Shown here: positions 19,501 to 37,238 of the stretch, piece after piece
How positions within the stretch are numbered: position 1 is the first letter of the stretch
Layout of the letters: every line of letters starts with the position of its first letter
DNA from: Trypanosoma brucei
Lineage: Eukaryota
Direction of reading: 5' to 3'
NCBI GenBank assembly: GCA_000002445.1
Contig: CP000066.1
Location: 1,280,001-1,344,000 of the forward strand
Length of the DNA stretch: 64,000 nt
Program-made: the position numbers and the translations under genes
Notes under the pieces: model-generated
What the model was told of the DNA's origin: nothing
The model's database searches: none
The model's input: only the letters and a program-made list of their open reading frames with translations

Positions 19501-22500
19501 AACTTTCACGAGCGCCACATCATCACTATCATCGCCCGCTTCGTCTGCAGTAATCTCCACACCGTGGCTCTCCGAGTTTTGTATGGTGATGAACGTGACT
19601 TCTGCTTCCTTTGAAAGTCTTGCGGGAAGAAGAACGCCACGGCCCCTCGATCCACTTACTTGTACCGCCTGCAGGATCGTTCGGCTGCCATGCTCTGCCA
19701 CAATCCCTGTTGTGCACTCCTGAACGGTTGACTTCGTGATTTCACCAACACTCTGGGACATGTACCATACCCCTGCGTTCTCACAACGACTAATTGTGAG
19801 ATCTCTAAAAGTCGCCCACCTGAGTATGCTGCCACCGAGTTCAACATCAATAATCCTATTGCTGCCTCCACTCGTGTGAGTTTCTGTTGGACACTCTTCA
19901 ACTAACGCCTGCGCCTCACTGTCCAATTCCTGTATTGCCATTGTCTCTTCGTCAGCTGGTGACGCAAACAGCACTCCAATTGCGCACTTCTCCACGGTTA
20001 CCCGTTCCGCCAAAAGCCGTGCAGCCGTAGAAGCGAGAAATCCAGCTCTCGAACATTTTGTGATGTCACACCTATTCATGCGCACCACAGCACCGCTTTT
20101 CACGACAACACCAACACCTTTCTCCGCAATGCCCGCACCGATCCTGCACTTTTCGAAGTACAGCGTGGTATCACAATCACCGGCCACAACGCCCTCCTCG
20201 CATTCGTCTCCTCCAATGGTACAGCTGAGGAACAGCGCACTCCCTTCTCTCACCGATCTGGAGAAAGAAGTTTCCCTGATGCGTTCACCCTCCCCGGGAA
20301 TCGCCACAACACCCTGACGCTGCTGTGCAATAAAGCAGTCCTTGAAGCTAACATTGTCCGGCTGCCTGAGCAGCACGCCCTTTCCATTACGGTTAATGAC
20401 ACACTGCTCTAATGAACAAGCACCGTTTTCTAATATAGCGACTCCAGCCACGCCACACTTCTCAACAGTGGCCTGAACAACTGTAGCATTGGGAGAGGGG
20501 CCTGCAACAACAATACCGTACTTTTGGCAGGCATTAACTTTTACAGTGTCGAGTGACACCATTGTCCCCCGCGTAAATGTAATCCCTATGCTGCAATTCA
20601 ACACCTGGATATCGTTGACTTTGTCGGAAGCCCCGAACTTGGCAAGCACTCCCGTCTTGCACCCACTGATAATGAGTCGACTCAAAGTACCCTCTGCACA
20701 AAGATTCAAACCGACTGCCGAATCAGATATCGTGTTCTTTCGTACTACTACGGGTGTATGCGACTCACAAGAAACGCCAAAATCTCTACATGAGTTAATG
20801 CTATTTTCTTCGACAACGCCCTTGGCCGCTCCTGTATACTGGATGCCGTGGCCAACCCGATTCATGTGGCACTTTACAACCCTGCAATGCGTTTCGGCTC
20901 CGTCAGCATTGACAACACCACTCCTACAATCCGTAAACGTGCACCCCTCGATGAGTGCCTCAGCGCCTGTCCCTGCCTGAATACAAGTAGCGGAACAGTC
21001 GCGCATATGGTTACTGCTTATGGTAGCGGTGCCCATTTCGAAGGCGTATACTCCTGGTCCCGTCAAGCCACGGAAGTTATTACCAACAACCGTACATTCG
21101 CTTCCCGGACCCGCCACGACAACGCCGTAGCGAGAAATTGCTACATCATTTCCCCGCACATGAGCTGTACTTTGTTTCTTCACGTAAATGACCTCCCGCA
21201 TGGAACCTAAGTTGTTTTTTTCAATAGTTGCCCTCGAGCCTTCTTCTACAAGTACACCTTCCTTTTGGCTAATCAGCAGGGAGTTACCAACGAGATGGCA
21301 GTTGCTGCGGCCCGTTACCACAACGGAGGCGCCGCCGCTTCCTTTCAATGTATTTCTGCTAAGTGTTGCCTGACTTGACTCTTCAATAACAATGTGATGC
21401 ACGGACACATCCTTAATGGAACTGTTCTCCAGGACGAGCCGGCTTCCTCCCGACATTGTAATCGCTGTCGCCATCCTCGACACTTTCACCCCTCGGATGA
21501 CTACATTTGAGTTATCTTGTATAAAAATACCGTACATACTTTCATTGAACCCAGAGACAAGGTTGTCGTCGATAACCACCGAACCATGATTGCAGATAGA
21601 GAATCCGGTGACGCTATTTCTGGAGAGCACATTTTGTGTAACAACACTTCCCGTACAGTCTCCGACAAAAGCCATACCTGTTGATGACTCTGCTACATTA
21701 CATTCGTTAACCTTAACCGCTGAACGATCAATGACAAACCCATAATAAGAGTTCCACTGCAAATTACATCTACATATTGAGACACATGGACCAATGGCAT
21801 CCTCACCATCGCCACCGCTGCTCTCTTCACGTACATGGGTGGTGCGTGCGTAAATTCCAGCACCACAGCCCTGAACATCATTTCCATCGACTGTAACTGT
21901 AGAGTCCCCGCCCACAACAATACCCCAGGCACTACAGTTGCCTATGCGGTTGCCACAAAAGCACTCGGGGGAGAGTCTGCAGTCGTTAATACGGAACCCT
22001 GTTACACCATTAGACAACATATTGGACACCATAACAGGGTGGGCATTGTGAACCACACGCACCAGAGCCGCACCTTCGGGTGCGACCCTCTTCAGCAAAA
22101 CTTGAAGTGAGTGCGTGGGTACTTGATCCACCTGAGAATTACTGGCCGCCTCCCCACCGCCAGTAATAATGTTGTCATGAAATAACACCTCCGTCGTCCC
22201 AGAGAGACGCCCACTCATGTGCACAACCACGCCGCTCCGCCCTTTGGTTTCACTAATACGATTGTGGCGTACGATCGGCTTTCCTGCCGTGTCGAAATAG
22301 AGGCTCTCACCCTCGTGGTCAAAGATGTGATTATGCTCATAAATCCCGCTGCCGTTTCCAATGACAGAAATTCCAACCCCATGGCGCGAGCTGTGAATAC
22401 GGCAGTGCGATACATGCGGTTTGGAGTCATTTTTTACATACAGAGAAGTCATATCGCATTCTTCAATGCGCGGGTTGCCCCGTTTAACTACAACAGCTTG

Positions 22501-22866
22501 ATTTTCCGAAGCACGATTTCCCTTCGCTGTGATATTCAGGCCGTGCAAAATGATCGGCCCATCCACGTCAACTACCAAGCAAGGGCCCACAGAAACAATG
22601 GTGGGAGGCTCCGCATCCTTTGCACCGCACAATTCTAGTGGATGCTTTATGGTGATGTTTTCGAAGTACGTGCCACTTTCCACCACAATGCGGTCATATG
22701 GGCGGGAAGCAAGAATTGCGTCAGTGATCTGGTGGAACGCCGCCGTGACGGTTTTACCCACACGAATTTGTCGTGTCTCAAGGCCGTGAAGCGCACTTAT
22801 AACGCGTGGATAATCGGAATCTGCGACAAGAGTCATTGTGTGGTGAGCGAAGGAAGAAAAAACCAA
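13531..22866 (-). CDS. Giant (3111 aa) parallel beta-helix (PbH1/CASH-like) repeat protein. The first 1900 aa or so are beta-solenoid repeats, followed by about 1000 aa of Ser/Gly/Pro/Arg/Lys-rich disorder and a short, apparently structured C-terminal segment.
   Basis: Single 9.3-kb ORF. Dozens of 22-25 residue repeats show the N-x-I/V-x-x-N...G-I/V signature of right-handed beta-helix repeats (e.g. NNIFEQATSGIVMEE, VYNNVFRKCGTAVTM, VENIFKQQDSSNSRAV). The tail is an RS/SP/TP-rich low-complexity region. An alternative start, MTLVADS, lies at 22836. Confidence 0.75.
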   Translation of the reverse strand: MVFSSFAHHTMTLVADSDYPRVISALHGLETRQIRVGKTVTAAFHQITDAILASRPYDRIVVESGTYFENITIKHPLELCGAKDAEPPTIVSVGPCLVVDVDGPIILHGLNITAKGNRASENQAVVVKRGNPRIEECDMTSLYVKNDSKPHVSHCRIHSSRHGVGISVIGNGSGIYEHNHIFDHEGESLYFDTAGKPIVRHNRISETKGRSGVVVHMSGRLSGTTEVLFHDNIITGGGEAASNSQVDQVPTHSLQVLLKRVAPEGAALVRVVHNAHPVMVSNMLSNGVTGFRINDCRLSPECFCGNRIGNCSAWGIVVGGDSTVTVDGNDVQGCGAGIYARTTHVREESSGGDGEDAIGPCVSICRCNLQWNSYYGFVIDRSAVKVNECNVAESSTGMAFVGDCTGSVVTQNVLSRNSVTGFSICNHGSVVIDDNLVSGFNESMYGIFIQDNSNVVIRGVKVSRMATAITMSGGSRLVLENSSIKDVSVHHIVIEESSQATLSRNTLKGSGGASVVVTGRSNCHLVGNSLLISQKEGVLVEEGSRATIEKNNLGSMREVIYVKKQSTAHVRGNDVAISRYGVVVAGPGSECTVVGNNFRGLTGPGVYAFEMGTATISSNHMRDCSATCIQAGTGAEALIEGCTFTDCRSGVVNADGAETHCRVVKCHMNRVGHGIQYTGAAKGVVEENSINSCRDFGVSCESHTPVVVRKNTISDSAVGLNLCAEGTLSRLIISGCKTGVLAKFGASDKVNDIQVLNCSIGITFTRGTMVSLDTVKVNACQKYGIVVAGPSPNATVVQATVEKCGVAGVAILENGACSLEQCVINRNGKGVLLRQPDNVSFKDCFIAQQRQGVVAIPGEGERIRETSFSRSVREGSALFLSCTIGGDECEEGVVAGDCDTTLYFEKCRIGAGIAEKGVGVVVKSGAVVRMNRCDITKCSRAGFLASTAARLLAERVTVEKCAIGVLFASPADEETMAIQELDSEAQALVEECPTETHTSGGSNRIIDVELGGSILRWATFRDLTISRCENAGVWYMSQSVGEITKSTVQECTTGIVAEHGSRTILQAVQVSGSRGRGVLLPARLSKEAEVTFITIQNSESHGVEITADEAGDDSDDVALVKVKNCEIFDNKGSGIVLQSSVTLESCCISGNECSGILCSGNDYQGNLRPHISLCQLENNKEANVIAAGGCIPELHSCVLEGAGVGVRVESAVSMVKCILRYMGVAAMFTHPESSPSDSGFIDSHLSRCVLKDNGIGLSCHWNAPASDESRILVENCMFDNSTKASVEVGQGPLVHIVATTFETSRKAICVEEYGRVDAEGCVFIGNLQGVIITSPQYVEVHRSRFLRDGNCGITVGGDRGEVQIRDNCFKDSSKKSVHISTENVLTCVQNNIFEQATSGIVMEESPRVYVYNNVFRKCGTAVTMRSPGCCGVVAGNILEENTCGCLCETEAKTKVWRNEFSGNKKCGIMVTTGAHPVVVENIFKQQDSSNSRAVSVCDGGIGHFASNRFIKNVCGVFLESTGSVVIVNKNTFDGNDVGVQIGKETTAHVVTCLFLNSGTADVCASQQIARGQCILAYNCFCSEAGTAVTLGEQAAVIIYRSLFIGSKGRGVALEGVSQSMVCESYFSGLSLGLFAGERAGGRIVNCIFLRCLRAVEACQHAKTAFHDCFFFARSSAQPGMVTLNKHAEPVFSHCEIIGTDKSSSPLLCSVGNGVVEECLFSSGNTSVSLGSECSTKLSGNKFLRGIYGVVLLAECAPTMDGNTFDSHDKAAVKIMSHAGGVMRENAFVQPIENGGILAGANNVVIENSKHIEATSIGEKSGKRVGNHAAVEERFLTTLAKWLRAAPAWTRNDLRGMPSAATLPPVIRESLNTVEDDEKEGDQAEGGEQGGVQPQMSRANRGTDEKTPGGEGAQADVKQKRAPVVGRGAGRRRKIPPYEFTPDNDISRAPEDIVNELQSWLEGSNITLIVEEENRPTTGSAASQTYNSNMLLGVDEGISQMKKLQSDKKESHQLTSDREEDQGTWMSNSHVTSVVGSSERVRDPLDKHQDTASGWGPGPDPSADLGASKSEDETMLQIPLEEHLEAVTEDPQLSARHVEKGLERAPRRPSPPLYSTNVEVQQRGPPRRGPPETFVRTMGLSTVARRNREADLRRRSSVAMQSKKRRRTRRKSLAAINVGRSPVPGGKGKEEGTTPAGSERPRYPTPSGGFMGIEGDSCSAPSFDPSHLSHYNGDAEELSGTTLGNDIYLTEFGVESASTRRGMPEFNGSCESQGERITSGSRPDRDLLKNVTLNFSLLGQLSFSRNSNRNPSPLPCGEFLGADDHRFDGKPNKNVARSAPVDLAKNDSKGALGTGSYQKGPKEHVGLRAMMMDQSGDMKKQLDSTRPRAVRESETKRQLLPADSAGEAMGARTAPSGRTGREGAPRCSVDQFVVHSGAAQQTKRISKKGRAEKKFVKKKVYPVSGTARRGRKDNNYSAEETQTFNKISRREGGKENESMLSEKTAEISATVGDGGAPKGGSTTIAEGPPTRASTSRPALGEKQLHANASGQPSKVSLLGITKRPTEPGVEVPHDGLSGWTSTAASESYTCGLSVGSREGLRTGASGRAVGNTTCAGAADGSLLLNRMGHAMSSRAVTREGEGKGGLSPSADRAKDHLVKESRTIPFSGEKGSFASPNERSQDFARGNKNVTVPQLSIGVLKDKERSTPSRREADAPSATYPKANREHVPHDAAEPLKLKQAGKLRNQTCGEGKGYPLYPPGDILSRSGESQGWESGATFWKPVGQLSENGRAMLGALQNEVFAGEANVFDPPWGDVTGPKETEVFSLATPTTARTETQAGEPCGSSSEAGELEASVEDVIALLRWLADMRQRKLMTREGFSRAVDCMKETSAVPFFFCENSAAGGPTVMVRLPKTADQVVVVPLLKPNQKIEIEVVRNTHILPPCMVKPSPVASPKQEEKVNVVRINTCVALPSLVKKIEETPRGSSPPHPVSANMSSLSTGYPRQSPPNSPGASVGHFATLESSHSCLGWRPNVESEEKGVKSARTAYTASKQQVTASSGFGRRRFAAAIPKDANRTLVPFNPADPKGTSPFINAGKVATFITAGTPNVIL

Positions 22867-23394: not shown

Positions 23395-26300
23395 CTAATC
23401 TGCGCTCATCATGACCTCTTCCCCAGGGGATAAAAAGCGTGTAACTGGAAGCTTATCACCAACACACTGGTCATCTCGCAGCGTGTCAAGCACCTGCTTC
23501 CAATGTGTGGACTGCTCAAGAAGGCCGTCATTTCCAATCATCACCATTGCGAAACGGGCTCTGCTGCAGCACACGATCATGCGGTTGCGCATTTTTAAGA
23601 ACTCCGTCAACCGTTCTGTACGCACCAAAGAAAGTATCACAACATCGTTCTCATCACCCTGAAAAAGATCCACCGTGCTCACGCAGACATCACTGAAGGC
23701 GTGCAGTCGGAGGGTCGTACGTAGCAACCTCAATTGTGCTAAATAAGGCGTAATGACCGTAATGGATTTCTGGTGTACCCCCTCGGTGGTGAGGTGAGCG
23801 ACAAGTTTCAGAACCATTTCAGCCTCCAACAAATTCACCTTGCTTCGGCTTCCTGGGGCCTCCGACTCCGGCTGACTGTGACGCCAGAAAAATACACGGC
23901 GTGCCAGACCGGGGACAGCGTCAGTATGCAATACACCTTTAGTACAAACAAACGGCCGTTTGTAGAGGTCTTTGTTATCCAACAGCATATTAGGACCGTA
24001 AAACGGCCGGACCAAGCGGGAGATGAGAGGATGCATGCGGCGTTGCTCTCTCAAACAGATCGGCCGCATACGCGAAGAAAGGCGCTCAAAGAGCGACATA
24101 TTTAATCGATTAAATTTTTCGTATAAAAACGTCTCTACCTTTGGTCGAAGCTGGAAGTGGTCACCGATGAGCACCACCTGTTGGAGGGAGTCTGTCATGC
24201 ACGCAAGTAACTGTGACTCAAGCACTTCTGCTGCTTCTTCAACTATCAAAATAGTCGGCCGGAGGGATCGGAGAAGGTTTTGATTGCTGGCGCAACCAGT
24301 TGTTGTGAGGCCAACTACATCCGCCCCCTGTAGAAGCTCAAGCTTCAGCTCACTCACAACGTGATCACGTATTGTCACGACGTTACTAATTGCATCCATA
24401 ATTAATAGACAGTCCCTTGCCTTAACGGAAATACACTTCCGAATGAGGTAGGCATAGTACTCATGGCGTAGAACAGGATCAAGACTCCACAGTGACAGCA
24501 ACTCCTCTGGGACACCTTCAGGACAGGTGGGAGGATTTTTCGCAAGCTCCATGGCCTCAGATGAAAGATATGTCGTATGTAGCGAGTCGTTGAACTTTCG
24601 GTTCTCCTCCTGGCGTCGCATTTCCTGAAACACACTTAGCTGTGCTGCACCGTCTTCCTCACCCTCCTTTTCGTCTTCAGGTTTACCCTCGGTCCTCTCA
24701 CGTGGCGACCGCTGTGCTTCCTCCAAAGCTGATTCCACGCGAGTTTTGAGAAGCTGCAAGTACAGCGTTCTATTTGCTGTTCTTTCCGACTTCCCCACAT
24801 ATTGCTTTCCTTGCAACCATTCATCGCGATCCTCGTATTTAATGTGTTTCCGCTGTTCCTCCGTCAGCCAGCGCTCGAAAAGTGACTTGGGCACACGACC
24901 CGATTCCAAATAGTGAATCTCCTTGATTAGGCGCTCTAGTCTTTGATTCATTAGATATATGCGCTCCTTAAGGCTATTAAGCATTGCCTTGTCCGTTTTG
25001 GTTCGCAATAATGCGTTAAGGTTGTAAGCATCGAGTGCCGCCTCCTTGGATTGGCCACCAATGCGAACAACGCGCTTTCCACAGGGGAAGAGATCGGCCT
25101 TGGTGGCACCCATTTCGTTGACCAAATGCTGTGCAATACGAGGCCGCTCGTCATCCCATAGCCCACTCTGGAGTAGATCTATGAGAAACTCATCAAGTGC
25201 ATGATTTTTATACGTGATGACAACAACAGGACCGACTATGCTTGGAAGCATGTGCTGTGGCGAAGTGGAGTGTAGCTGTTCCACGTCGATAGTACTAAGT
25301 ATATCACCCGATGAAACAAGCTGTTTGTACCGGACATACACCTCAACCAGTCGGCAACCAATGAACGACTTGCCTGTTCCGGGTGGGCCTTGCACAAGAA
25401 GAATATCGGAGCTGGGGAACAGGCGAAGGGCTTCCTCCTGTCCCTTGTCCAACGTAAAGCGGTCGCAGACATCTGCAATCAAACTCTGGAACGCAAACTC
25501 ACAGTGGGGTGGGATGTACGCGACGAGCTCGCCAGGTTTTTTTGCTTTACAAGTTATTCCATTCGCGGAGGCATGGGCGGCCGCCTCGGGACTCACCAGA
25601 GAGGACAGCATAGGCAGTGGCATGGCAAGTGGCCCAACAAACGCATGAAGAGCCTTCATGATGCTTTTATAACCCATCATGAACACCTCTGTTACCAACA
25701 TTAATGAACAGTCCATCTTGTTCAGGGATTCGTTACGATGCAGTTTTTCAGCGAGAAGTTCAAAACTTGCACTGCTGTCACAAGGTGAGACGACGACCAT
25801 GTTTCCGCTCAGTAGTGGTTTGTTGAGGGAGGTCACGGAACACCAAAAGATCTCGTCGTCTTCCATGACGGTACGGTTGAGCCCAGTTGTGATGCAAAGA
25901 GTGGTACCCACCGGAATGTTCACCGGCGCTTGGGCTTTAGGGCTCTTCGGCTGCACCTGGAGAATGTAACTGGTACAACAGGCAATGTCCCTGTCTTTGG
26001 TGACGACGCGGCCCATAAACCTTACACTGTGGTACAAACGTGCGTGTTGGACATCGGATACCGTTTCCTCTGTAGGTTTGTAATCAGGGAAATTGAAGCA
26101 TGCTGCAGGAAGAATTCTGCTCACTGCTTCGAAAGTATCCGCTTGCAGCATTCTGCAGTGATCCGTGATGAACGACTCTGTGGTGTCGTAAACCTTGCTA
26201 CCGTTCACGGGAAGATTGCATGGAGAGAACGGAGACAACTCGTGCGGTGGGGGAATGGAGAAGTCAGACGCTGATGGAATGAGGATGTCTGTGCTTCTGC

Positions 26301-27639
26301 TACCTTCCATGTTCTGCATGCGCCCTAACGTGGCATCCACCTTTCTTTTTCTTACTGCCAAAACTGAGCCCGGTAACTCTCCAGCAGATCCTCTTGTAGC
26401 CTTCACACCCTCGTTCAGCAATGAAATGAGAGTGGTTTGCACCGATGCAACCCCGTCTCCCGCTACCGGTGCATGCTGCCGCAAAAGCACAATAAGATTC
26501 GCCACCTCAAGCCAACGTTCAACTGCTGTCGCCATGTCACCCTCATTCAAAATTTCCCGACCAATCTCAAGTGCACTTTGCACCATTGATGGGAAGAACG
26601 CCGGAATAGTTCCATCCTTCGATTCACGTTGCAATAACACGAGAAACGACTGCAGAAGTGGAATGTGGATAGGTTCACGGTTCCCAACAAAAGTGGTCAA
26701 CTCCACAAGGGTGTGCACACCATCAACGAATGCGGCGGGTGGCATATCTCTCAACAGACGCAGCATATCTGGCCATTCAAACGTATGAGTCATAACGGCC
26801 TTAATCACTGTAATTGGCTGCGTTGCGTTTTTGCATCGCCTAATAAACTTGTAAACATCCTCCGACGTTACATGTGGCGTCTCCAGCCGGATGTCTACGG
26901 CTATTGGGTAGTCCCTGCTAACGTCAATTTTAAGTGTAACAGCATCCCCAACAGCAACTTCCCTCACACCGTAATCGACGCGGTCTACAAAGAATTTAAC
27001 TTCACCCATGTCGGGCACCCGAACGAAGCCAATGTTATGCTCTGTGTCCACACGTCCAATGGTACCGCGCCGTCGTTCCTCCACGAATGGTTCCAGATCC
27101 CTTCGCTCATTATTATTTTGCACCCACACGTGTGGTCCACCAACCTTCACATCACGCGTGCCCCCTCGCCCATCCCTCACTTGAGCGCCACCTTTTTTGA
27201 TTGCGAGCAGAGTAACGGGATCATTTTCCCACTGCCTTTCTTGCATCAGTCGGTAGCGCTCAATCTCCGCACGGTGAGCCGCAAACTTTTCCAAAACACC
27301 TCCCCCTTTTGGTACCTTAGCTTCCGTGCATTGCCGTTTGGTGTGGCCCTCTTTCCTGCACTCCCTACACCACCGTTTCTCCCGAAGCGTCAGCAGGCCA
27401 TTCTGCAACCAAAACTGTAGTGCCTCCTTCTGCTCATCTGTTCGCGCCGGATTCGTAAATATTGCCTTCCAGTGCTCTTTGTCTTCCAAGTGCGTGGTGG
27501 CGTACTGAGCCAATAGTGGATGGAAATCCACAATTCTCAGGAATGTCCAGTGGTTGCACAGAACATCATCCGGATCCTTCCAATCGATGCTCGCACTCTT
27601 TTCGTCATTCCACTGCCGCTCCACCTCCATGTCGCGCAT
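23395..27639 (-). CDS. ZNFX1-like (Upf1-like superfamily 1) RNA helicase, about 1414 aa, with an N-terminal CCHC zinc knuckle and a cold-shock-domain-like segment
   Basis: Helicase motifs: LVQGPPGTGKSF (Walker A), ITYKNHALDEFL, IVEEAAEVLE (motif II, ZNFX1-type EEAAE), VLIGDHFQLRP, LREQRRMHP, CCSRARFAMVMIGN. A long coiled-coil insert lies between motifs I and II, as in ZNFX1. The N-terminal region has CRECRKEGHTKRQC (C-x2-C-x4-H-x4-C) and GTIGRVDTEHNIGFVRVPDMGEVKFFV, which is CSD-like. Start placed at MRDMEV (cat at 27637-27639). The ORF track extends 78 codons upstream through low-complexity sequence. Confidence 0.8.
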   Translation of the reverse strand: MRDMEVERQWNDEKSASIDWKDPDDVLCNHWTFLRIVDFHPLLAQYATTHLEDKEHWKAIFTNPARTDEQKEALQFWLQNGLLTLREKRWCRECRKEGHTKRQCTEAKVPKGGGVLEKFAAHRAEIERYRLMQERQWENDPVTLLAIKKGGAQVRDGRGGTRDVKVGGPHVWVQNNNERRDLEPFVEERRRGTIGRVDTEHNIGFVRVPDMGEVKFFVDRVDYGVREVAVGDAVTLKIDVSRDYPIAVDIRLETPHVTSEDVYKFIRRCKNATQPITVIKAVMTHTFEWPDMLRLLRDMPPAAFVDGVHTLVELTTFVGNREPIHIPLLQSFLVLLQRESKDGTIPAFFPSMVQSALEIGREILNEGDMATAVERWLEVANLIVLLRQHAPVAGDGVASVQTTLISLLNEGVKATRGSAGELPGSVLAVRKRKVDATLGRMQNMEGSRSTDILIPSASDFSIPPPHELSPFSPCNLPVNGSKVYDTTESFITDHCRMLQADTFEAVSRILPAACFNFPDYKPTEETVSDVQHARLYHSVRFMGRVVTKDRDIACCTSYILQVQPKSPKAQAPVNIPVGTTLCITTGLNRTVMEDDEIFWCSVTSLNKPLLSGNMVVVSPCDSSASFELLAEKLHRNESLNKMDCSLMLVTEVFMMGYKSIMKALHAFVGPLAMPLPMLSSLVSPEAAAHASANGITCKAKKPGELVAYIPPHCEFAFQSLIADVCDRFTLDKGQEEALRLFPSSDILLVQGPPGTGKSFIGCRLVEVYVRYKQLVSSGDILSTIDVEQLHSTSPQHMLPSIVGPVVVITYKNHALDEFLIDLLQSGLWDDERPRIAQHLVNEMGATKADLFPCGKRVVRIGGQSKEAALDAYNLNALLRTKTDKAMLNSLKERIYLMNQRLERLIKEIHYLESGRVPKSLFERWLTEEQRKHIKYEDRDEWLQGKQYVGKSERTANRTLYLQLLKTRVESALEEAQRSPRERTEGKPEDEKEGEEDGAAQLSVFQEMRRQEENRKFNDSLHTTYLSSEAMELAKNPPTCPEGVPEELLSLWSLDPVLRHEYYAYLIRKCISVKARDCLLIMDAISNVVTIRDHVVSELKLELLQGADVVGLTTTGCASNQNLLRSLRPTILIVEEAAEVLESQLLACMTDSLQQVVLIGDHFQLRPKVETFLYEKFNRLNMSLFERLSSRMRPICLREQRRMHPLISRLVRPFYGPNMLLDNKDLYKRPFVCTKGVLHTDAVPGLARRVFFWRHSQPESEAPGSRSKVNLLEAEMVLKLVAHLTTEGVHQKSITVITPYLAQLRLLRTTLRLHAFSDVCVSTVDLFQGDENDVVILSLVRTERLTEFLKMRNRMIVCCSRARFAMVMIGNDGLLEQSTHWKQVLDTLRDDQCVGDKLPVTRFLSPGEEVMMSAD

Positions 27640-28092
27640 AAGGACTGTCACTCCGCTAGCTCTGCGTATGTGTGCGTGTGTGCGTTTACACTCTAGGGAA
27701 CTCTTATTATTTGATTTAGTCCGCACAGCCACAGCCAACTCCACAGAAGACCTGCAATCGTGGAGTGAGCGAGATGGTGGGGCAGGGGAAATGCGATAGA
27801 TGTGTGCGCTGTGCCAGCGCCTACAGCCACTTTTGCGAAAAAAAAAGAAGAAAACATTCACCAGAAGCAACAACAGAACAACGATAAGAGATGAAGGTAA
27901 TGGCTAGAAGAACAGTAGTAAATAATGTAAAACAGAAAATCCCCCATCAGCTTGGGCACATCAGGCTGGAGATTTGTCAGTTGCCTCTCGAACACGGTTC
28001 TTGTTGGTATTGCCGCAATACTTCCCCAGCTTTCCCCCCTCGGATTCACAACATTTGAATTAATACGTTAATAATTCCCCATACTTCTGTTG

Positions 28093-28094
<2 letters not shown>

Positions 28095-28123
<29 letters not shown>
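28095..28123. repeat. (GT)14 microsatellite in the helicase/UGGT intergenic region. Nearby (GAAAAA)n at about 28311-28345 and (CGCCAA)3 at about 28348-28366.
   Basis: Direct reading: gaagtgtgtgtgtgtgtgtgtgtgtgtgtgtggttt, gaaaagaaaaaagaaaaaagaaaaaagaaaaaaaaaag, gctaacgccaacgccaacgccat. Confidence 0.9.
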
Positions 28124-28544
28124 GTTTATGTGTAGAAACTTCGTCTTAACTAGTCAAGTACGTCCAAGAAGCAAAAACTAAGCACGAATAGTGGTGCAGA
28201 ATGCCCGGCAAGCATTGCTAATTTTAAAGAAAAATCATGCCCACCACCTTATACGCGCATGCCACTGTGAATCACTTGCATGGCAGATTACATTCATGAT
28301 GGAAAAGAAAAAAGAAAAAAGAAAAAAGAAAAAAAAAAGAAAAACGCTAACGCCAACGCCAACGCCATAAAATAAACGGAGTAAGAAGGTTTATCAAGTC
28401 ACATAGCCCGTTACTACCGCAAGTGGTTGTAAGACAGGAGAAGGTGGGGGAGGGAGGAACAAATCATCCCAAAACACTCATTTGGGGCCCCAAGTGACAC
28501 ATCTCAATATATTTCACTTGCCTGCAACATTCCCCAAGCTCGCA

Positions 28545-31500
28545 TTACATCATCCCACTTGAATCCATCGGATCCATTAACTTTCCTTGTCCTTTTTTTT
28601 TTTCTGCACCATCTCTGAGCTCTGCATTACGTTTCTCAAGAAGCTGCTTAGAAAGGTCTTCCAACTCCCGATCCATCTCGTCCCAACCGTCAACGATACG
28701 CCGCACATTTTCTAGTTTGGGTATCTTTGTCAGAGGGTTGTTGCAGAGGTCTATGGTCTTGGCACGTGCCTTACTCTCTCCTGCGCACCAGGTCTCACAC
28801 CAGAGCCATTCCTCCGGCAGTGAAAATATGGGCATCTCATCCTGCATGAAGTTTGGTAAATCCTGATCCAGATTGGCGAGGCTTCCGGGATCTTCGCTAA
28901 GCCTGGCGTACGTTGCGCGGTACTTGTCGCCGCCTAGCGCAGCCCGCAGTCGCTGCACGTTGACTAAATAAAGTGCACTGATATGATATGGTTTTCCTCG
29001 TAAGTGACTCAACCAAAACCCTTGGTCCCAGAACCGAAAGTTTGTTGTGGCATCGTTAGGGTACTCTCTGCAGAAGGGCGTGTAGGCCATTGCGGCAGCG
29101 CCAATATTCATATTGTACAGTTCATGCAAGTCCGCTTGCACGATCTGATCCGCATCAACAAATATGACGCGGTCTACGTTAAGTGGGAAAAGAACGTCAA
29201 GGAAGAGAATCTTGTAGGCCCAAATGGTGCGTTGCTTCTCCGTTTGCTTGTTTAGCCACCACGGCCAGCGGTAAGTAACGAATCCTACATCGAAACCGTA
29301 GTGCTCTGCCAACAGGGGCACGAGCTCCTTGAACTGCGGTGATAAGAAGTTCTCTATGAGCCAGAACTTAATCCGCGTTGTGTTAGCTCCGTGTACATCT
29401 GAGGAGGTGCGCATTACGGTGTGCATCATGATGCGGAGGAACCTCTCATACAAATGTCCAGAGGCAACTGTAAAAATATTAAGCGTTGGAAATTTGGGAC
29501 GCTCACTCCGCGGCCCCTTTGGTGGCCACTCGGCATTACTCGCCTCGACAGCCGCGGCGGCGATGCTTTCGATGCTGGCTTCCTCAAAACCTGCCGTCCT
29601 CGATATACCGAGTCGAATGAAGGATCCCGTAAAGGAAGAAACAACAACAGGAATGCTTTGTCCAGCGGTGTAGTTGAAGTGACGCCCTACAGAACCGACT
29701 GCTACGTCAAGCACTGGGTCGTCGTTGTGATGAGAAATATAAAACGCTCGCGCGATGGCCCCCGGTTGCACGCCCAAGTACCAGAGACCTGGTGTGCTCT
29801 GAAGTTGGAAGTAGCCTTTGATCGTCATGACGATCGTGTCGCGCGTCGTATTGGTATAACTGCCGCTTGTATGGTTATACAGTGATGAGCGAATTTGCAA
29901 CGGAAGTCCGCTGGAGGGACCTCCTGTGCTGTCGTCTTCGGCACTCCCGGAAATGAGGATGGAGTTAATACGGTACGTTGCATAGAGATACTTCGATGAA
30001 GGTGGGAGCCTCGACAGAATAATATTATCGAGATCATATTCTGCCTCCATGGGGAAAACTGTCCAATACTCTGCCTCTTCTATGCCTAGCGTCAACAGAT
30101 GTTTATCCGGCAGATGACTGAACACGGCCTTAGGAGCTACCACACGTCCCTCAGCATCGAAACGCAGTTGTAGTTCGCCAACAAACTTGTAGTAATTACG
30201 TATCGTGTTCCCAACCGTTAACGAAGGGTTCAAATACACTGTGCAGACGGCTCCAATGGACAACTGAGAGATATAGTTGCATAAGGAGACAAGCTGCTGC
30301 GACGCGCGGGCCACGGGGTCTACCACAACCGTAAGCCGATGCCTTGGCACCCTCTTTTCGGTCGCGCCCACAACAAATGAGAGTGGGCCTGGGCTCACGG
30401 GAAGCCGAGTTTTTTGCTCCTCACGACGGTCATTGTTGGCCGCATCACGTCTCAACGCCGCTACAACAGCGGCAATTCTGGAGGCATAAAAATTTTGGTC
30501 ACTACCGGGTATTTCCAGACCAGGGTCCATACCGACAAAAGTGGCTTCCTCAAGCACATTCCATACTTTCTTTGGGGTATGGCCACCTTCCAGGGTTGCT
30601 ACTTCGAAGTCCTCTTCAGTAAAGTTGTCATACACAAAAAGGCGACCGTTTACGTAATAATGAACACTCCCCGGGGCTATTTCGTGCACCGCCGAAACAC
30701 TACCAGTCATCTCCCTGCAGAACTCAGATGCGAGTAAAAACAACTGATTAAGCTTCCCTGCTTGGTCCCTGGTGCTGCCTTCAGCAGATGCTCTGAAAAG
30801 TGCTTGTAGTTGGTCGGAGAACTTAACACCTTTCAACACGTGCTCGTACTTTTTCGGATCGTCCAGTTGCCATCCTGGGTGGCTGTGCTCAAAGGTTGAG
30901 AGAAGAAACTCTTGCAACAAGTTTAAACACTCCGACTTGTCCGCCACCCCACAGTGCTGCAACAGCAGGTGCAAATCGTCGACAACGGTGCGGGAGTTTG
31001 TTTTCAGTGAAGTACCGCACACAGCAAACGTCAGTCGTGTTCGGCCACACGTCTCGTCAGCACCTTTGCAAAGAAGAAGGGACCGTACGGCATTGAGGGT
31101 TGCCTGTAAACTTTGTGCAGTTACGGGCACGTGTAGGGTTAACACACCACTGACCAATGATACTTCGTTCATGCCACTTGTTGACGGGTATATAAACGGG
31201 TACTTGTGGAGGAAGCTCAACACCGAGTTGTGGCTCCAGTCGGCAAACGTTTTGTTCTCAAAAAGAGCCGCAACATAGCGAGTCCTCGCACCGCTCAACT
31301 CCAGAACGGATTCATAGAGGTTATCATCGTCGTCGCTTAAGGCGCCCATCTCCACCAGTTTCTGTAAATGTGCAAACTCCTCCCAAATACCGTGTTGAAG
31401 AACGATCGAAATATCGGTATGGACTCGGCCATTGAGAAGCACTACTGGAAACTTACTAAACCCCAACGTACGCACCATCTTTTGCGTTTTCTCATAGTGA

Positions 31501-35275: not shown

Positions 35276-36136
35276 TCACACACCGCTACGACAAGCCATG
35301 AAACGCGTGGCACCGTATGTGAGACCCGCAGCTGATAAATTCCATACGGTCGCTCCCACCGCCTTCCACACGTTGGCATAACTCCCAAAGAAGACCTCCG
35401 ACTGCCCGACGCTTACAACAAAAATCCCCGCCGCTAAAGTGCACAGGGCAACGAGTTCACTGCGCGCTGAACTAAGTTCAGAACCCATAAAAGGCAAAAG
35501 TGGAAGAACCCACCCCAACGTATATCCAATAGAGGAGGGAATAGCAGCATCCACTACCGCTTCCCACCCCGCTGGTGGCTCGAGGCGGGAATACCCAAGT
35601 TCTTCAACCATCATTAGATTTGCAAAGGCTTCTCGATGCTTCGCGAAAATGCGCGTGATCATATGCGCTTCCTCCTCCAGGAGCCCTTGCGCTCTGTAAA
35701 TTGCAACCATCTCTTGTATTTCTCCAGCGATATGGTTGTCAATTTCCCAAAGTTCACGCTGAAGTTCCACTTCGTACACCGCTCTTTCAAATAGCAGGGA
35801 GCGGCATACCGTAAAGGCGATACCCACGCCGCCCGAAAAGGCATGTGCAATTAGCAGCGGAGCGAAACGCTTATCCTGTGAAGTGGATCCCAAACTTGAG
35901 CGGTACATGCCAGCCAAAGCACCGATGGCACCGGCCGCGCACGTGAATCCCGTAAGACAGCCACAAACAAGCGACCGATTCCTAAGGGCACTGTTCTTTC
36001 GTATATCAACGTTAAAATGTTCCATTCTATTATCGTGGGCATCTCGGGAACGTTTGGGGTCACCAAAGGAACATCGCGCCTCGTCTTTTTCCGTGAGGCG
36101 AAAGCTGTCCATCTCAAGACACCTGCTATAAACCAA
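35276..36136 (-). CDS. VIT1/CCC1 family membrane protein (putative vacuolar iron/manganese transporter), 286 aa
   Basis: Gly-rich N-terminal transmembrane segment. Central cytoplasmic helix with Glu-rich metal-binding-like motifs (ELQRELWEIDNHIAGEIQEMVAIYRAQGLLEEEAHMITRIF...EELGY), resembling the VIT1 E-x-x-E region. C-terminal hydrophobic Gly/Ala-rich TM segments. An alternative start lies at 36112. Confidence 0.55.
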   Translation of the reverse strand: MVYSRCLEMDSFRLTEKDEARCSFGDPKRSRDAHDNRMEHFNVDIRKNSALRNRSLVCGCLTGFTCAAGAIGALAGMYRSSLGSTSQDKRFAPLLIAHAFSGGVGIAFTVCRSLLFERAVYEVELQRELWEIDNHIAGEIQEMVAIYRAQGLLEEEAHMITRIFAKHREAFANLMMVEELGYSRLEPPAGWEAVVDAAIPSSIGYTLGWVLPLLPFMGSELSSARSELVALCTLAAGIFVVSVGQSEVFFGSYANVWKAVGATVWNLSAAGLTYGATRFMACRSGV

Positions 36137-36270
36137 AGCAACGGAGAGATAAAATGCCTAATGTTTTTGAATGCTTTCCGAAGCAAACAGAAGGCCAAGT
36201 TTCAACTCTTGAAATATGCTCCGTGTCCGTTCGAGTTCCAACTGGAGGATGGATGCAGCCGGTAAAACAA

Positions 36271-36291
36271 TATATATATATATATATATAT
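36271..36291. repeat. (TA)n microsatellite
   Basis: Direct reading: aacaatatatatatatatatatatatatgtatg. Confidence 0.9.
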
Positions 36292-37238
36292 GTATGTGTA
36301 TAACTTAATTAGAAACTAAATAGAACAGAAACAATCCAACAACCCACACAAATTCCGATAATCTAGGTCATGTGTGCAGGTTAGAGGGGCCAATAAAAAA
36401 GGAACAAGAAGAAAATTAATGATTTAAAGGGGAGTGCACAAACGTCCAACCATAAATAGAACAATGAGGGATACAATGAGAATACACATGCCGATGCATG
36501 CATAGTTAATGTCGTGCGCGGAAGATTACTGAACATAAACACATATTTATATATCAGTGCAGTTGGTTCTTTTGCACCACCATTATGCGCAGCAGGAGCG
36601 TGTTAGAACGATTAAGTCCGTTGGAGCGAAGACACCACCCTCCACAGGCAACACCAACGACAACTGCGCATAGTGACGGTGAATGGGGAAAGAGAAGTGT
36701 TATAAACATCTGAAACAAGTAAACATTCAGAAAGGTGAGGCGGCTGCCTTCCTGCATTCTCACTTCTCTACCACCAAAAGCGTGTGATCAACTAAAAAAT
36801 TAAATAAATAAAAGACGTCCGTGAGGGTGTTGACATGTGTGCAGATAAGTTGGTGTATCTGAGCGCCGCAACTTTAACGCCTAAACGAGTCCGTAATTCA
36901 CCTTCCCTTCCCTCACCCATCATCACACCATGTATAGGGAGTATTCTTCTTTTTGGCCCGCCATACGCACCTACAGAAAAGCTAAAAGTGCCAACCGCTG
37001 ATGTTGCCCCACACCCTTTGAATTTTTGATTAAAACAAACTTATTTATTGGTCACGATAAGTACGTGTGTCTTTAAATGTTCATCGAAGCCACGGGATTT
37101 AACTGACTACACCTCATCCACACAACAAATACATACACGCACATATATGTATACGCATATTATTAAGTGAATGGGTAAGTTCGATTCATTGTAGTGTTGA
37201 CACATTCACCCTCCAAACGCACTACCAATTTCTTGTGC

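What the first reader, a model, noticed from the sequence alone, without database searches (positions are those of the whole stretch)
23395..27639. ZNFX1-type SF1 helicase with an N-terminal zinc knuckle and cold-shock-like domain but no NFX1 zinc fingers
The helicase core carries the ZNFX1/Aquarius-like signatures ITYKNHALDEFL and IVEEAAEVLE, plus the long coiled-coil insertion between motifs I and II. It is not the UPF1 type (DESTQ). Upstream of the core are a canonical CCHC knuckle (CRECRKEGHTKRQC) and a CSD-like beta-barrel (GTIGRVDTEHNIGFVRVPDMGEVKFFV). Both are nucleic-acid-binding modules that classical ZNFX1 does not have, and the C-terminal NFX1-type fingers of ZNFX1 are missing. In metazoans ZNFX1 is an antiviral / small-RNA-pathway helicase. 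A CSD–knuckle–ZNFX1-helicase chimera in a trypanosome suggests a dedicated RNA surveillance or RNA-granule factor that deserves experimental attention.
Basis: partly seen in the sequence, partly recalled or inferred. Interest (0 to 1): 0.6.

Follow-up and report, generated by a model that had tools for sequence, protein, structure and literature searches.

The report
Trypanosome ZNFX1-type helicase with knuckle and CSD
This is a real, uncharacterised Trypanosoma brucei gene (most likely Tb927.3.4620) for an RNA-helicase relative of the animal antiviral protein ZNFX1, which has lost ZNFX1's zinc-finger/ubiquitin-ligase half and instead carries a zinc knuckle and a divergent cold-shock domain at its front end.

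Summary
Window 23395..27639 (minus strand) is a 1414-aa ORF, 100% identical to a T. brucei TREU927 chromosome-3 protein.

- **Helicase core:** it is closest to human ZNFX1 (252 bits against 138 for UPF1, 98 SMUBP2, 92 AQR). Foldseek's top hit is the ZNFX1 helicase core. It shares ZNFX1's deviant EEAA Walker B motif. Its stalk/1B region and its 250-aa 1C insertion are homologous to ZNFX1's.
- **Phylogeny:** an NJ tree places it with ZNFX1 and Hrr1-labelled proteins (82%), never with UPF1 or IGHMBP2.
- **CCHC knuckle:** conserved in all Kinetoplastea sampled.
- **CSD-like segment:** Pfam misses it in T. brucei alone, but a family profile matches cold-shock domains (hhalign 95.9%, E 6e-9). Only two of six canonical aromatic residues survive.
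- **C-terminus:** no NFX1 fingers or E3 module. Two deep-branching relatives (Papus, P0132) keep a Cys/His-rich tail with NFX1-type spacing, which suggests secondary loss.
- **Distribution:** the N-terminal architecture has only 27 matches among 1.84 billion representatives; every named one is kinetoplastid or diplonemid.

Function is inferred, not shown. I found no published functional study. This is a new variant of a known kind, of moderate interest.

The parts
23395..27639 (-). Complete CDS (1414 codons plus stop), most likely Tb927.3.4620
   Evidence: ORF list and translation. 100% identity to the TREU927 protein P0001. Gene ID inferred from gene order next to UGGT Tb927.3.4630 and VIT Tb927.3.4640 and the name 'AAA domain containing protein'.
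27821..27940 (-). Polypyrimidine tract with candidate trans-splice acceptor AGs (27831-27830 and 27822-27821). Predicted 5' UTR of about 190 nt with no ATG seen.
   Evidence: Read directly from the sequence. This is a prediction; no mapped spliced-leader site was available.
27376..27618 (-). N-terminal helical domain (residues 8-88), found only in the euglenozoan relatives, no known relative
   Evidence: AF2 pLDDT 86-96. Invariant W10, K14, W20, H40, W77, R86. Present in kinetoplastids and diplonemids. No Pfam or PDB sequence match outside the knuckle.
27328..27369 (-). CCHC zinc knuckle (residues 91-104, C-x2-C-x4-H-x4-C)
   Evidence: Present in 14 of the 18 proteins scanned and missing from the diplonemid-type sequences and P0124. 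The family profile hits TUT7, TUT4, HIV NC, XRN and AIR2 knuckles, best E 9e-4. Pfam zf-CCHC scores 12.4-15.5 bits, below the 20.8 cutoff.
26881..27075 (-). Divergent cold-shock domain (residues 189-253)
   Evidence: hhalign of the family profile against a CSD alignment: 95.9%, E 6.4e-9. In the hmmsearch against PDB, the top 31 hits are all cold-shock proteins or domains, best E 1.2e-7. 11 of 14 orthologue segments hit PF00313 at E<=10. AF2 predicts five strands but at pLDDT 50-62.
26290..26868 (-). Helical, possibly ARM-like domain (residues 258-450)
25459..26277 (-). Stalk helices and 1B beta-barrel upstream of the P-loop (residues 455-727)
   Evidence: hhalign against metazoan ZNFX1: 99.6%, E 7e-24 over 257 columns. 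AF2 strands at 535-619. Pfam PF25396 'ZNFX1 domain' is not detected at E<=1.
25066..25458 (-). RecA1, N-terminal part: Walker A GPPGTGKS (751-758), motif Ia ITYKNHALDEFL (808-819), VRIGGQS (858-864; its last six residues fall in the next part)
   Evidence: Pfam AAA_11. Alignment to ZNFX1's GPPGTGKT, CYTNHALDQFL and VRVGGRS.
24325..25065 (-). 1C insertion (residues 859-1105): two long helices, an acidic run (985-997) and an invariant short helix SVFQEM (1002-1007)
   Evidence: hhalign against the vertebrate ZNFX1 1C: 98.5%, E 1.4e-15, collinear end to end. AF2 places helix 1003-1012 between loops of pLDDT below 50. The ZNFX1 1C and its plug helix are described in bioRxiv 10.1101/2025.10.14.682297.
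23455..24324 (-). RecA1 C-terminal part and RecA2 (residues 1106-1395): deviant Walker B VEEAAE (1133-1138), GDHFQLRP, QGDENDVVILSLVR, NRMIVCCSRAR
   Evidence: Pfam AAA_12, E 1e-36. 171 bits to ZNFX1 over this stretch. F1171 aligns with ZNFX1's RNA-stacking residue Y1043.
23398..23454 (-). Short C-terminal tail (residues 1396-1414) in place of the ZNFX1 zinc-finger stalk
   Evidence: The 52 residues after motif VI, which include this tail, hold only one Cys, at 1392. This position aligns with the start of the first ZNFX1 finger region.

Best explanation
The locus encodes a catalytically intact SF1B (Upf1-like) helicase of the ZNFX1/Hrr1 clade. It is conserved across Kinetoplastea and Diplonemea.

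**Architecture, N to C**
- a helical domain found only in the euglenozoan relatives
- one CCHC zinc knuckle (present in the kinetoplastid sequences, absent from the diplonemid-type ones)
- a divergent cold-shock domain
- a helical, possibly ARM-like domain
- stalk plus 1B barrel
- RecA1 interrupted by a ZNFX1-type 1C insertion
- RecA2

The ZNFX1 zinc-finger stalk and the RZ/Miz ubiquitin-ligase module are absent. They were probably lost, because two deep-branching relatives keep a finger-like Cys/His tail.

**Inferred mechanism**
- Like ZNFX1, the protein is an RNA-stimulated ATPase that moves 5'->3' along single-stranded RNA.
- The knuckle and CSD add single-strand nucleic-acid affinity or target selection, in the manner of Lin28.
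- The 1C insertion is regulatory. It may auto-inhibit through the conserved short helix that follows its acidic run.
- With no E3 module, its output must be RNP remodelling or translocation, not ubiquitin signalling.

**Shown versus inferred**
- Shown: homology, architecture, conservation, intact motifs.
- Inferred: substrate, polarity, auto-inhibition, cellular role.
For: **Identity and conservation.** 100% match to the TREU927 protein. Orthologues at 46-73% identity and about 99% coverage occur in all trypanosomatids sampled.

**ZNFX1-type core.**
- phmmer against PDB: ZNFX1 188 bits, UPF1/NAM7 about 98.
- Family profile against PDB: ZNFX1 252, UPF1 138, SMUBP2 98, AQR 92, SEN1 91.
- Foldseek of the AF2 model (pLDDT 73.6): top hit 9q9z, the ZNFX1 helicase core, E 8.7e-26, TM 0.63.
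- NJ tree: euglenozoan clade 100%; with ZNFX1 and Hrr1-labelled proteins 82%; that group plus AQR 100%; never sister to UPF1 or IGHMBP2 alone in 200 replicates.
- Shared deviant EEAA Walker B.
- Stalk/1B homology: 99.6%, E 7e-24.
- 1C homology: 98.5%, E 1.4e-15.

**Intact motifs.** Motifs I, Ia, II, III, V and VI are intact, and the aromatic RNA-stacking position is conserved as F1171.

**Accessory modules.** Knuckle. CSD.

**Restricted distribution.** Only 27 matches to the N-terminal 720 aa among 1.84e9 representatives. The named ones are Papus, Diplonema and Lacrimia.

**Finger-like tail in deep-branching members.** The Papus tail contains CKRGHHCRRQCHDDSH. Its only PDB hit is ZNFX1 at the homologous position.
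Against: - No experimental data on activity, localisation, partners or phenotype were found.
- The CSD keeps only F205 and F217 of the six canonical contact residues. W11->R, F18->I, H33->D and F34->R are changed, so RNA binding by it is uncertain.
- The AF2 model of the CSD is low confidence, and Foldseek found nothing significant for the N-terminal model.
- The candidate 'plug' helix cannot be aligned with confidence to ZNFX1's EEADLIQAD helix, and it is less acidic.
- Pfam PF25396 is not detected.
- The NJ tree uses a simple distance, few labelled references, and no HELZ, MOV10 or SETX.
- The match of the Papus tail to ZNFX1 has E 5.9.
Confidence: 0.7

Rival explanations
1. Hrr1-like small-RNA cofactor: the helicase works in the T. 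brucei RNAi pathway, as Hrr1 does in the fission-yeast RDRC and ZNFX-1 does in C. elegans germ granules.
For: - In 43% of bootstrap replicates the nearest labelled neighbours are Hrr1-labelled fungal proteins.
- The Diplonema orthologue is auto-annotated as Hrr1.
- As described for Hrr1, it lacks NFX1 fingers.
- ZNFX1-family helicases are linked to RNAi (papers).
Against: - The gene is equally conserved in T. cruzi and Leishmania donovani. From established knowledge, those species lack RNAi.
- Also from established knowledge, trypanosomes have no RNA-dependent RNA polymerase for an RDRC-like complex.
- The 'Hrr1' labels are automated annotations.
Confidence: 0.1
2. Functional stand-in for Aquarius: kinetoplastids are reported to lack an AQR homologue, and this ARM-stalk-barrel-helicase protein supplies the missing spliceosomal SF1 ATPase.
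For: - Foldseek aligns the model to Aquarius over about 1400 columns, E 3e-22.
- AQR is the sister clade of ZNFX1/Hrr1/Euglenozoa, with 100% support for the joint clade.
- PMC8682746 states that there seems to be no AQR homologue in kinetoplastids and that the PRC complex lacks a helicase.
Against: - The sequence score to AQR (92 bits) is far below the score to ZNFX1 (252 bits).
- No Aquarius N-terminal Pfam domains were detected.
- The gene ID is absent from the main text and the held supplements of the PRC5 spliceosome purification.
- The 1C insertion and EEAA motif are ZNFX1 traits.
Confidence: 0.05
3. DNA-directed helicase: the knuckle and CSD bind single-stranded DNA, as CNBP, UMSBP and Y-box proteins do, and the enzyme acts on R-loops, replication intermediates or telomeres.
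For: - From established knowledge, CSDs and CCHC knuckles bind ssDNA as well as ssRNA.
- SF1B relatives DNA2 and ZGRF1 are DNA enzymes, and both appear among the distant hits.
Against: - The closest relative, ZNFX1, is an RNA helicase with a solved RNA complex.
- DNA2 and ZGRF1 are much more distant.
- On inspection only, the acidic N-terminus (MRDMEVERQWNDEK...) does not look like a mitochondrial presequence, which argues against a kDNA role.
Confidence: 0.1
4. The knuckle/CSD region is not part of the protein: the true start is downstream and the N-terminal ORF is a read-through artefact.
For: Two database orthologue models (T. congolense P0002, T. rangeli P0008) lack the N-terminus.
Against: - 16 of 18 orthologues, plus relatives as distant as Papus and the diplonemids, conserve the region at the amino-acid level with invariant residues.
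- The polypyrimidine tract and AG lie upstream of ATG 27639, with no ATG seen between them.
- The two short models are truncated predictions.
Confidence: 0.03

Closest known systems
ZNFX1 (NFX1-type zinc finger-containing protein 1; human structure 9q9z; C. elegans ZNFX-1)
   Same: - Best sequence and fold match.
- Deviant EEAA Walker B.
- Motif Ia (Y-x-NHALD-x-FL) and the VR(I/V)GG(R/Q)S motif.
- Homologous stalk/1B region and homologous long 1C insertion with a mid-insertion acidic run.
- Aromatic RNA-stacking position conserved (Y1043 aligns with F1171).
- A helical domain ahead of the stalk.

   Different: - No NFX1 zinc-finger stalk and no RZ or Miz E3 ligase module. The protein ends 52 residues after motif VI.
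- It has an extra N-terminal helical domain, a CCHC knuckle and a CSD, none of which is listed for the 53 ZNFX1-family proteins retrieved.
- Pfam PF25396 is not detected.
- The plug helix is not demonstrably conserved.
Hrr1 (S. pombe) / SAD-3 (Neurospora): ZNFX1-type helicases of fungal RNAi
   Same: - A ZNFX1-type helicase without the zinc-finger/E3 half.
- Hrr1-labelled proteins group with the euglenozoan clade in many bootstrap replicates.
- The ZNFX1 paper names Hrr1 as the closest sequence relative of the 1C insertion.
   Different: - Hrr1 works with an RdRP in RNAi. From established knowledge, trypanosomes have no RdRP, and the gene persists in RNAi-negative species.
- Hrr1 is not described as having a knuckle or CSD (recalled from memory, not tested here).
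- The reference proteins used here are only auto-labelled fragments.
Lin28-type RNA-binding module (CSD plus CCHC knuckles)
   Same: It combines a cold-shock domain and a retroviral-type CCHC knuckle in one polypeptide. The knuckle profile matches the TUT4/TUT7 and HIV NC knuckles.
   Different: - One knuckle rather than two.
- The order is reversed (knuckle first), with a linker of about 85 residues.
- The CSD lacks most canonical aromatic contact residues.
- The module is fused to a helicase.
Aquarius (AQR/IBP160), spliceosomal SF1B helicase
   Same: - Overall ARM-stalk-barrel-helicase layout, aligned full length by Foldseek.
- Sister clade in the NJ tree.
   Different: - Much lower sequence score.
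- No AQR-specific Pfam domains.
- Not found in the trypanosome spliceosome purification.

Membership tests
SF1B / Upf1-like helicases | Two RecA lobes with motifs I, Ia, II, III, V and VI (Pfam AAA_11 plus AAA_12) | tested here: met
   AAA_11 E 3e-19 and AAA_12 E 1e-36, both above the curated cutoffs. All motifs are intact and invariant across orthologues.
ZNFX1 family | Helicase core closer to ZNFX1 than to UPF1, SMUBP2, AQR or SEN1 | tested here: met
   252 bits against 138, 98, 92 and 91. Foldseek top hit is 9q9z. NJ clade with ZNFX1 and Hrr1-labelled proteins at 82%.
ZNFX1 family | Deviant Walker B EEAA instead of DExx | tested here: met
   VEEAAE at residues 1133-1138, invariant. ZNFX1's EE1007AA is described in bioRxiv 10.1101/2025.10.14.682297.
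ZNFX1 family | Unusually large 1C insertion in RecA1, homologous to that of ZNFX1 | tested here: met
   Residues 859-1105. hhalign against the vertebrate ZNFX1 1C: 98.5%, E 1.4e-15.
ZNFX1 family | Acidic 'plug' helix in 1C that occludes the RNA groove | tested here: inconclusive
   An acidic run (985-997) is followed by an invariant short helix, SVFQEM, flanked by low-confidence loops. It could not be aligned with confidence to the ZNFX1 helix EEADLIQAD.
ZNFX1 family | Stalk/1B region upstream of the P-loop (Pfam PF25396 'ZNFX1 domain') | tested here: met
   Pfam gives no hit at E<=1. Profile-profile comparison gives 99.6%, E 7e-24 over 257 columns, including the YLDTHFRLLRED-type motif.
ZNFX1 family | N-terminal armadillo-type domain | tested here: inconclusive
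ZNFX1 family | NFX1-type zinc-finger stalk after the helicase | tested here: not met
   52 residues after motif VI with one Cys, against about 600-700 residues with 62-70 Cys in ZNFX1. A finger-like remnant exists only in Papus and P0132.
ZNFX1 family | C-terminal RZ finger and Miz-like E3 ligase module | tested here: not met
   No sequence remains after the helicase. PF20173, which is listed for many of the ZNFX1 proteins retrieved, is not detected here.
Hrr1/SAD-3 (RNAi helicases) | Physical and functional coupling to an RdRP and small-RNA production | not testable with these tools
   Only sequence grouping with auto-labelled Hrr1 fragments is available. The gene is conserved in T. cruzi and Leishmania, which established knowledge holds to be RNAi-negative; this argues against an RNAi-only role.
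Cold-shock domain (PF00313) | Sequence homology to the five-stranded CSD beta-barrel | tested here: met
   hhalign 95.9%, E 6.4e-9. The top 31 PDB hits are all cold-shock proteins or domains, best E 1.2e-7. 11 of 14 orthologue segments hit PF00313. T. brucei alone gives no Pfam hit.
Cold-shock domain (PF00313) | RNP1/RNP2 aromatic and His nucleic-acid contact residues | tested here: not met
   Only F205 (= CspA F20) and F217 (= F31) are kept. W11->R196, F18->I203, H33->D219 and F34->R220 are changed (alignment).
zf-CCHC zinc knuckle (PF00098) | C-x2-C-x4-H-x4-C with a Gly before the His, conserved ligands | tested here: met
   CRECRKEGHTKRQC. The ligands are present in 14 of the 18 proteins scanned. 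The profile hits known knuckles, best E 9e-4. The Pfam score of 12.4-15.5 bits is below the 20.8 cutoff.
UPF1 | DESTQ motif II and an N-terminal CH zinc domain | tested here: not met
   Motif II is VEEAAE. No UPF1 zinc-binding domain is found in Pfam. The UPF1 score is about half the ZNFX1 score.
Aquarius | AQR-specific N-terminal domains and best sequence match to AQR | tested here: not met
   No AQR Pfam domains. 92 bits against 252 for ZNFX1. It forms a separate clade in the tree.

The most novel reading that the evidence does not exclude
The family is the euglenozoan descendant of an ancestral ZNFX1. It swapped the zinc-finger/E3 signalling half for a front-end knuckle-plus-CSD RNA-recognition module.

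On this reading it acts as an auto-inhibited 5'->3' RNA translocase that marks, sequesters or clears particular transcripts. Targets could include aberrant, unprocessed or viral RNAs such as Leishmania RNA virus. It would be a kinetoplastid counterpart of ZNFX-1/ZNFX1 RNA surveillance that works without RNAi or ubiquitin.

A still more radical variant, not excluded, is that it supplies the spliceosomal SF1 ATPase role of the Aquarius that kinetoplastids are reported to lack.
Probability: 0.15. Interest if true: 0.7.

Novelty: new variant of a known kind. Interest (0 to 1): 0.42.

Why it matters
Kinetoplastids control gene expression almost entirely after transcription, yet many of their large conserved RNA enzymes remain uncharacterised.

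- **A natural separation of functions.** This protein shows that the ZNFX1/Hrr1 helicase lineage reaches into Euglenozoa, including species generally regarded as lacking RNAi. Elsewhere the lineage is tied to antiviral immunity and small-RNA inheritance. Here it exists without the ubiquitin-ligase half, so it can be used to ask what the ZNFX1 helicase and its 1C insertion do on their own.
- **A testable module.** The knuckle-plus-CSD front end was found only in the euglenozoan relatives, and its RNA-binding role can be tested directly.
- **Limits.** The gene is already in the databases and its ZNFX1-like nature is hinted at by automated names. The advance is a sharper domain map and evolutionary placement, not a new kind of system.

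Tried and rejected
- **Pfam on the T. brucei protein alone** gave no CSD hit and a sub-threshold knuckle. A trypanosomatid-only CSD profile gave only 57% hhalign probability. The broader profile with deep kinetoplastids and diplonemids was needed.
- **Foldseek of the N-terminal AF2 model against PDB** gave nothing at E<=0.001. The CSD part of the model is low confidence.
- **The second homologue search, with the 370-aa core,** returned mostly unnamed fragments under 650 aa. Labelled references for the tree had to be pieced together from PDB alignment text and a few named hits. HELZ, MOV10 and SETX could not be included.
- **phmmer of the mollusc ZNFX1 1C insertion against PDB** did not find human ZNFX1, so the human plug-helix sequence could not be read directly. 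Vertebrate orthologues were used instead.
- **A regular expression for NFX1 fingers** failed on the positive control. Pfam zf-NF-X1 scores only 12.7 bits on a genuine ZNFX1 tail. Neither is a valid test, so absence of fingers rests on tail length and Cys/His content.
- **hhalign of the 258-450 helical region against the ZNFX1 ARM region** was not significant.
- **Literature.** No paper links ZNFX1 with this trypanosome gene. The gene ID is absent from all main texts searched. It is also absent from the held supplements of the tethering screen, TrypTag, the PRC5 purification and the stress-granule proteome. One paper had no held supplements.
- **Other features in or around the locus.** Rfam, tRNA and tandem-repeat scans of 22000-29000 found no other functional element. 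The plus-strand ORFs inside the CDS (up to 251 aa) are mechanical; I found no evidence that they are genes.

Full report
**What is there**

Window 23395..27639 on the minus strand is a single ORF of 1414 codons, counted from the first ATG. Its product is 100% identical over its full length to a 1414-aa "hypothetical protein, conserved" of Trypanosoma brucei brucei TREU927. UniRef names it a CCHC-type domain-containing protein, and it lies on a 1,653,225-bp contig, the size of chromosome 3.

The neighbouring genes on the same strand are:
- UGGT at 28545..33572. Pfam Glyco_transf_24, E 1e-122. A paper names it Tb927.3.4630.
- A VIT1-family gene at 35276..36136. A paper names it Tb927.3.4640.

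By gene order the helicase is therefore most likely Tb927.3.4620. A Clayton-lab supplementary table lists that ID as "AAA domain containing protein, putative", functional class "ZUnknown". All genes in this stretch lie on the minus strand, as expected for a polycistronic unit, so the neighbours say nothing about function.

**Checking the observation**

- ITYKNHALDEFL: residues 808-819
- IVEEAAEVLE: 1132-1141
- CRECRKEGHTKRQC: 91-104
- GTIGRVDTEHNIGFVRVPDMGEVKFFV: 192-218

The start codon is sound.
- A polypyrimidine tract (about 27940-27832) followed by AG (27831-27830) lies about 190 nt upstream. I saw no ATG in between.
- The N-terminal 260 residues are conserved at the protein level in 16 of 18 aligned orthologues, with many invariant positions. 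The other two are truncated gene models.
- The region is also conserved in much more distant relatives.

A mapped spliced-leader site was not available to me.

**The helicase core**

Pfam finds AAA_11 and AAA_12, the Upf1-like SF1B pair. The evidence that the core is ZNFX1-type is as follows.

| Comparison | ZNFX1 | UPF1/NAM7 | SMUBP2 | AQR | SEN1 | DNA2 |
|---|---|---|---|---|---|---|
| Single protein against PDB sequences (bits) | 188 | about 98 | 68 | 66 | 82 | 53 |
| Profile of 18 orthologues against PDB (bits) | 252 | 138 | 98 | 92 | 91 | 70 |

- An AlphaFold2 model of residues 255-1414 (mean pLDDT 73.6, pTM 0.66) has the ZNFX1 helicase core 9q9z as its top Foldseek hit (E 8.7e-26, TM 0.63). 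Aquarius follows, aligned over its whole length (E 3e-22), then SETX, UPF1, DNA2 and IGHMBP2.
- I built a neighbour-joining tree on 291 columns (motif II to the end of RecA2) with 200 bootstraps. The euglenozoan proteins form one clade (100%). That clade groups with ZNFX1 (human and mollusc) and Hrr1-labelled fungal proteins at 82%. The group plus Aquarius has 100% support. In no replicate was UPF1, IGHMBP2 or ZGRF1 the nearest labelled neighbour on its own.
- The tree is crude: it uses a simple distance and few labelled references, and it lacks HELZ, MOV10 and SETX. It agrees with every other line of evidence.

Specific ZNFX1 traits are also present.
- The deviant Walker B EEAA (VEEAAE, residues 1133-1138). 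The ZNFX1 cryo-EM preprint singles this out (bioRxiv 10.1101/2025.10.14.682297).
- Motif Ia (Y-x-NHALD-x-FL) and the VR(I/V)GG(R/Q)S motif.
- An aromatic residue, invariant F1171, at the position of ZNFX1's RNA-stacking Y1043. I verified the 87-residue offset between PDB chain numbering and the paper's numbering from the EEAA and Y1043 positions.
- The stalk/1B region upstream of the P-loop aligns profile-to-profile with metazoan ZNFX1 at 99.6%, E 7e-24. Pfam's PF25396 "ZNFX1 domain" is nonetheless not detected.
[quoted passage not shown] It is collinear from VRIGGxS to GLTTTG.

In the middle of 1C there is an acidic run (985-997), followed by a short helix with invariant residues S1002, V1003, F1004, E1006 and M1007. 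AF2 places this helix between loops of pLDDT below 50. The layout resembles ZNFX1's acidic run followed by the "plug" helix. In vertebrates that helix reads EEADLIQAD by my reconstruction from orthologues. The two helices cannot be aligned with confidence, and the trypanosome helix is less acidic. Auto-inhibition is a hypothesis only.

**The N-terminal modules**

*Knuckle.* The spacing is canonical (C-x2-C-x4-H-x4-C).
- The motif is present in 14 of the 18 proteins scanned, including the prokinetoplastid Papus ankaliazontas. It is absent from the diplonemid-type sequences (Diplonema, Lacrimia, P0136) and from P0124.
- A family profile of residues 6-108 hits almost only known CCHC knuckles in the PDB: TUT7, TUT4, HIV NC, XRN, AIR2, SF1 and SLU7. 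The best E-value is 9e-4.
- Pfam scores stay below the gathering threshold.

*CSD.*
- T. brucei alone gives no Pfam hit, and a trypanosomatid-only profile gives 57% hhalign probability.
- 11 of 14 orthologue segments hit PF00313 at E<=10, best 3.9e-4.
- A profile that includes deep kinetoplastids and diplonemids matches a CSD alignment at 95.9%, E 6.4e-9.
- The same profile retrieves only cold-shock proteins or domains as its first 31 PDB hits, best 1.2e-7.
- Homology to the CSD is therefore established at family level.

The binding surface, however, is remodelled. Of CspA's W11, F18, F20, F31, H33 and F34, only F20 and F31 are kept, as F205 and F217. The other four are R196, I203, D219 and R220, and D219 and R220 are invariant. 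AF2 predicts five strands, but at pLDDT 50-62. Foldseek found nothing significant for this model.

*Other N-terminal parts.*
- Residues 8-88 form a confidently predicted helical domain (pLDDT 86-96) with no detectable relative.

**Distribution and origin**

The N-terminal 720 residues match only 27 proteins among 1.84 billion representatives. The named ones are Papus (Kinetoplastea, Prokinetoplastina), Diplonema papillatum and Lacrimia lanifica (Diplonemea). None of the 53 ZNFX1-family proteins retrieved (mostly metazoan, three fungal) lists a CSD or CCHC Pfam domain. The knuckle-CSD-helicase architecture is thus known only from the euglenozoan relatives.

The trypanosomatid proteins end 51-128 residues after motif VI, with one or two Cys in that tail. 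ZNFX1 continues for about 600-700 residues with 62-70 Cys.

Two proteins form the deepest branch of the family (96% bootstrap): Papus P0126 and the unnamed P0132. They carry Cys/His-rich tails directly after the helicase, with 8 Cys plus 9 His in Papus and 7 plus 7 in P0132.
- Both have a C-x2-HP(E/K) motif.
- Papus has CKRGHHCRRQCHDDSH, which fits NFX1-type finger spacing.
- The only PDB hit of the Papus tail is human ZNFX1, at the homologous position (chain 1330-1400) and collinear. Its E-value is 5.9, so it is not significant on its own.

I read this as a vestige of the ZNFX1 finger stalk. On that reading the family descends from a ZNFX1-like ancestor, and trypanosomatids and diplonemids lost the fingers. 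This step is inferred.

**Mechanism**

*Shown:* an intact SF1B ATPase core of ZNFX1 type, with ZNFX1-type stalk/1B and 1C elements and two small nucleic-acid-binding-type modules at the N-terminus.

*Inferred from the ZNFX1 structures:*
- RNA-stimulated ATP hydrolysis
- 5'->3' translocation on ssRNA, clamped by 1B
- possible auto-inhibition through 1C

*Inferred from general knowledge of CSDs and knuckles:* extra single-strand affinity or target selection.

Because the E3 module is missing, the output cannot be ubiquitylation. RNP remodelling is the likeliest activity.

The gene persists in T. cruzi and Leishmania. From established knowledge these lack RNAi, which argues against an RNAi-only, Hrr1-like role.

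A role as the missing kinetoplastid Aquarius deserves mention. Guenzl and colleagues state that no AQR homologue is apparent in kinetoplastids and that the PRC complex lacks a helicase (PMC8682746). However, the gene ID is absent from that paper's text and its held supplements, and the sequence is clearly closer to ZNFX1.

**What is known**

I found no functional study.
- The gene ID occurs in no main text searched.
- It appears once, in an RNA-seq supplement, as function unknown.
- It is absent from the held supplements of the tethering screen, the TrypTag paper and the starvation stress-granule proteome. Stored supplements can be truncated, so these absences are weak evidence.

Automated names on orthologues already hint at the family: "putative NFX1-type zinc finger-containing protein 1-like" in T. 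theileri, and [quoted passage not shown] in Diplonema. I found the CSD annotated nowhere.

**Verdict**

The proposed role in RNA surveillance or RNA granules remains a reasonable but untested guess.

This is a new domain-architecture variant of a known helicase family, found only in the euglenozoan relatives, universally conserved in the kinetoplastids sampled, and uncharacterised. Interest is moderate. It is worth a tagging/CLIP/knockout study, and it is useful as a natural "helicase-only" ZNFX1. It is not a new kind of system.

Noticed in passing
window 13531..22866 (-): A 3111-aa ORF. Its N-terminal roughly 1900 residues carry 13 right-handed beta-helix repeats (PF13229, E 4e-112; NosD-like), followed by a long low-complexity tail. 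The listed TTG start is mechanical; the true start is probably the ATG a few codons in. It is an unusually large parallel beta-helix protein for a trypanosome.
   Followed up: partly
P0126 (Papus ankaliazontas) residues about 1349-1457; P0132 residues about 1510-1608: The deep-branching relatives of the helicase keep a Cys/His-rich tail directly after the helicase. It contains a C-x2-HP(E/K) motif and, in Papus, NFX1-type finger spacing (CKRGHHCRRQCHDDSH). This is a likely vestige of the ZNFX1 zinc-finger stalk that trypanosomatids lost. The Papus transcript may be C-terminally incomplete.
   Followed up: partly
P0023 (EukProt gene model, 1607 aa): It carries a VIT1 domain (PF01988) fused to the helicase family's middle region. 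In the window, the VIT gene lies two genes upstream of the helicase. This looks like a read-through or fused gene model from a related kinetoplastid, not a real fusion.
   Followed up: no
P0190 (Blastocladiella emersonii, 2173 aa): A ZNFX1-related helicase (329 bits to mollusc ZNFX1) whose precomputed Pfam list holds CCCH zinc fingers (PF00642, PF18345, PF18044) rather than the ZNFX1 domain. It is another lineage that pairs this helicase core with different RNA-binding fingers.
   Followed up: no
window 27640..28544 (intergenic, read on the minus strand): A (CA)14.5 microsatellite at 28095..28123 and a T-rich heptad repeat (AAAAGAA on the plus strand, five copies) at 28303..28338. They lie between the UGGT stop and the helicase polypyrimidine tract. 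This is typical trypanosome intergenic composition.
   Followed up: no
window 35276..40330 (-): Further genes of the same polycistron: VIT1-family (Tb927.3.4640), an ERG2/sigma-1-receptor-like protein at 37239..37904 (E 2e-80), and a 601-aa WD40 double-propeller protein at 38525..40330. All are unrelated to the helicase.
   Followed up: partly
Pfam zf-NF-X1 (PF01422) against a genuine ZNFX1 tail: The Pfam NF-X1 finger model scores only 12.7 bits (E 0.14) on a 120-residue Xenopus ZNFX1 finger region. It is also missing from the precomputed Pfam lists of all 53 ZNFX1-family proteins retrieved. A Pfam negative is therefore not evidence that these fingers are absent.
   Followed up: yes
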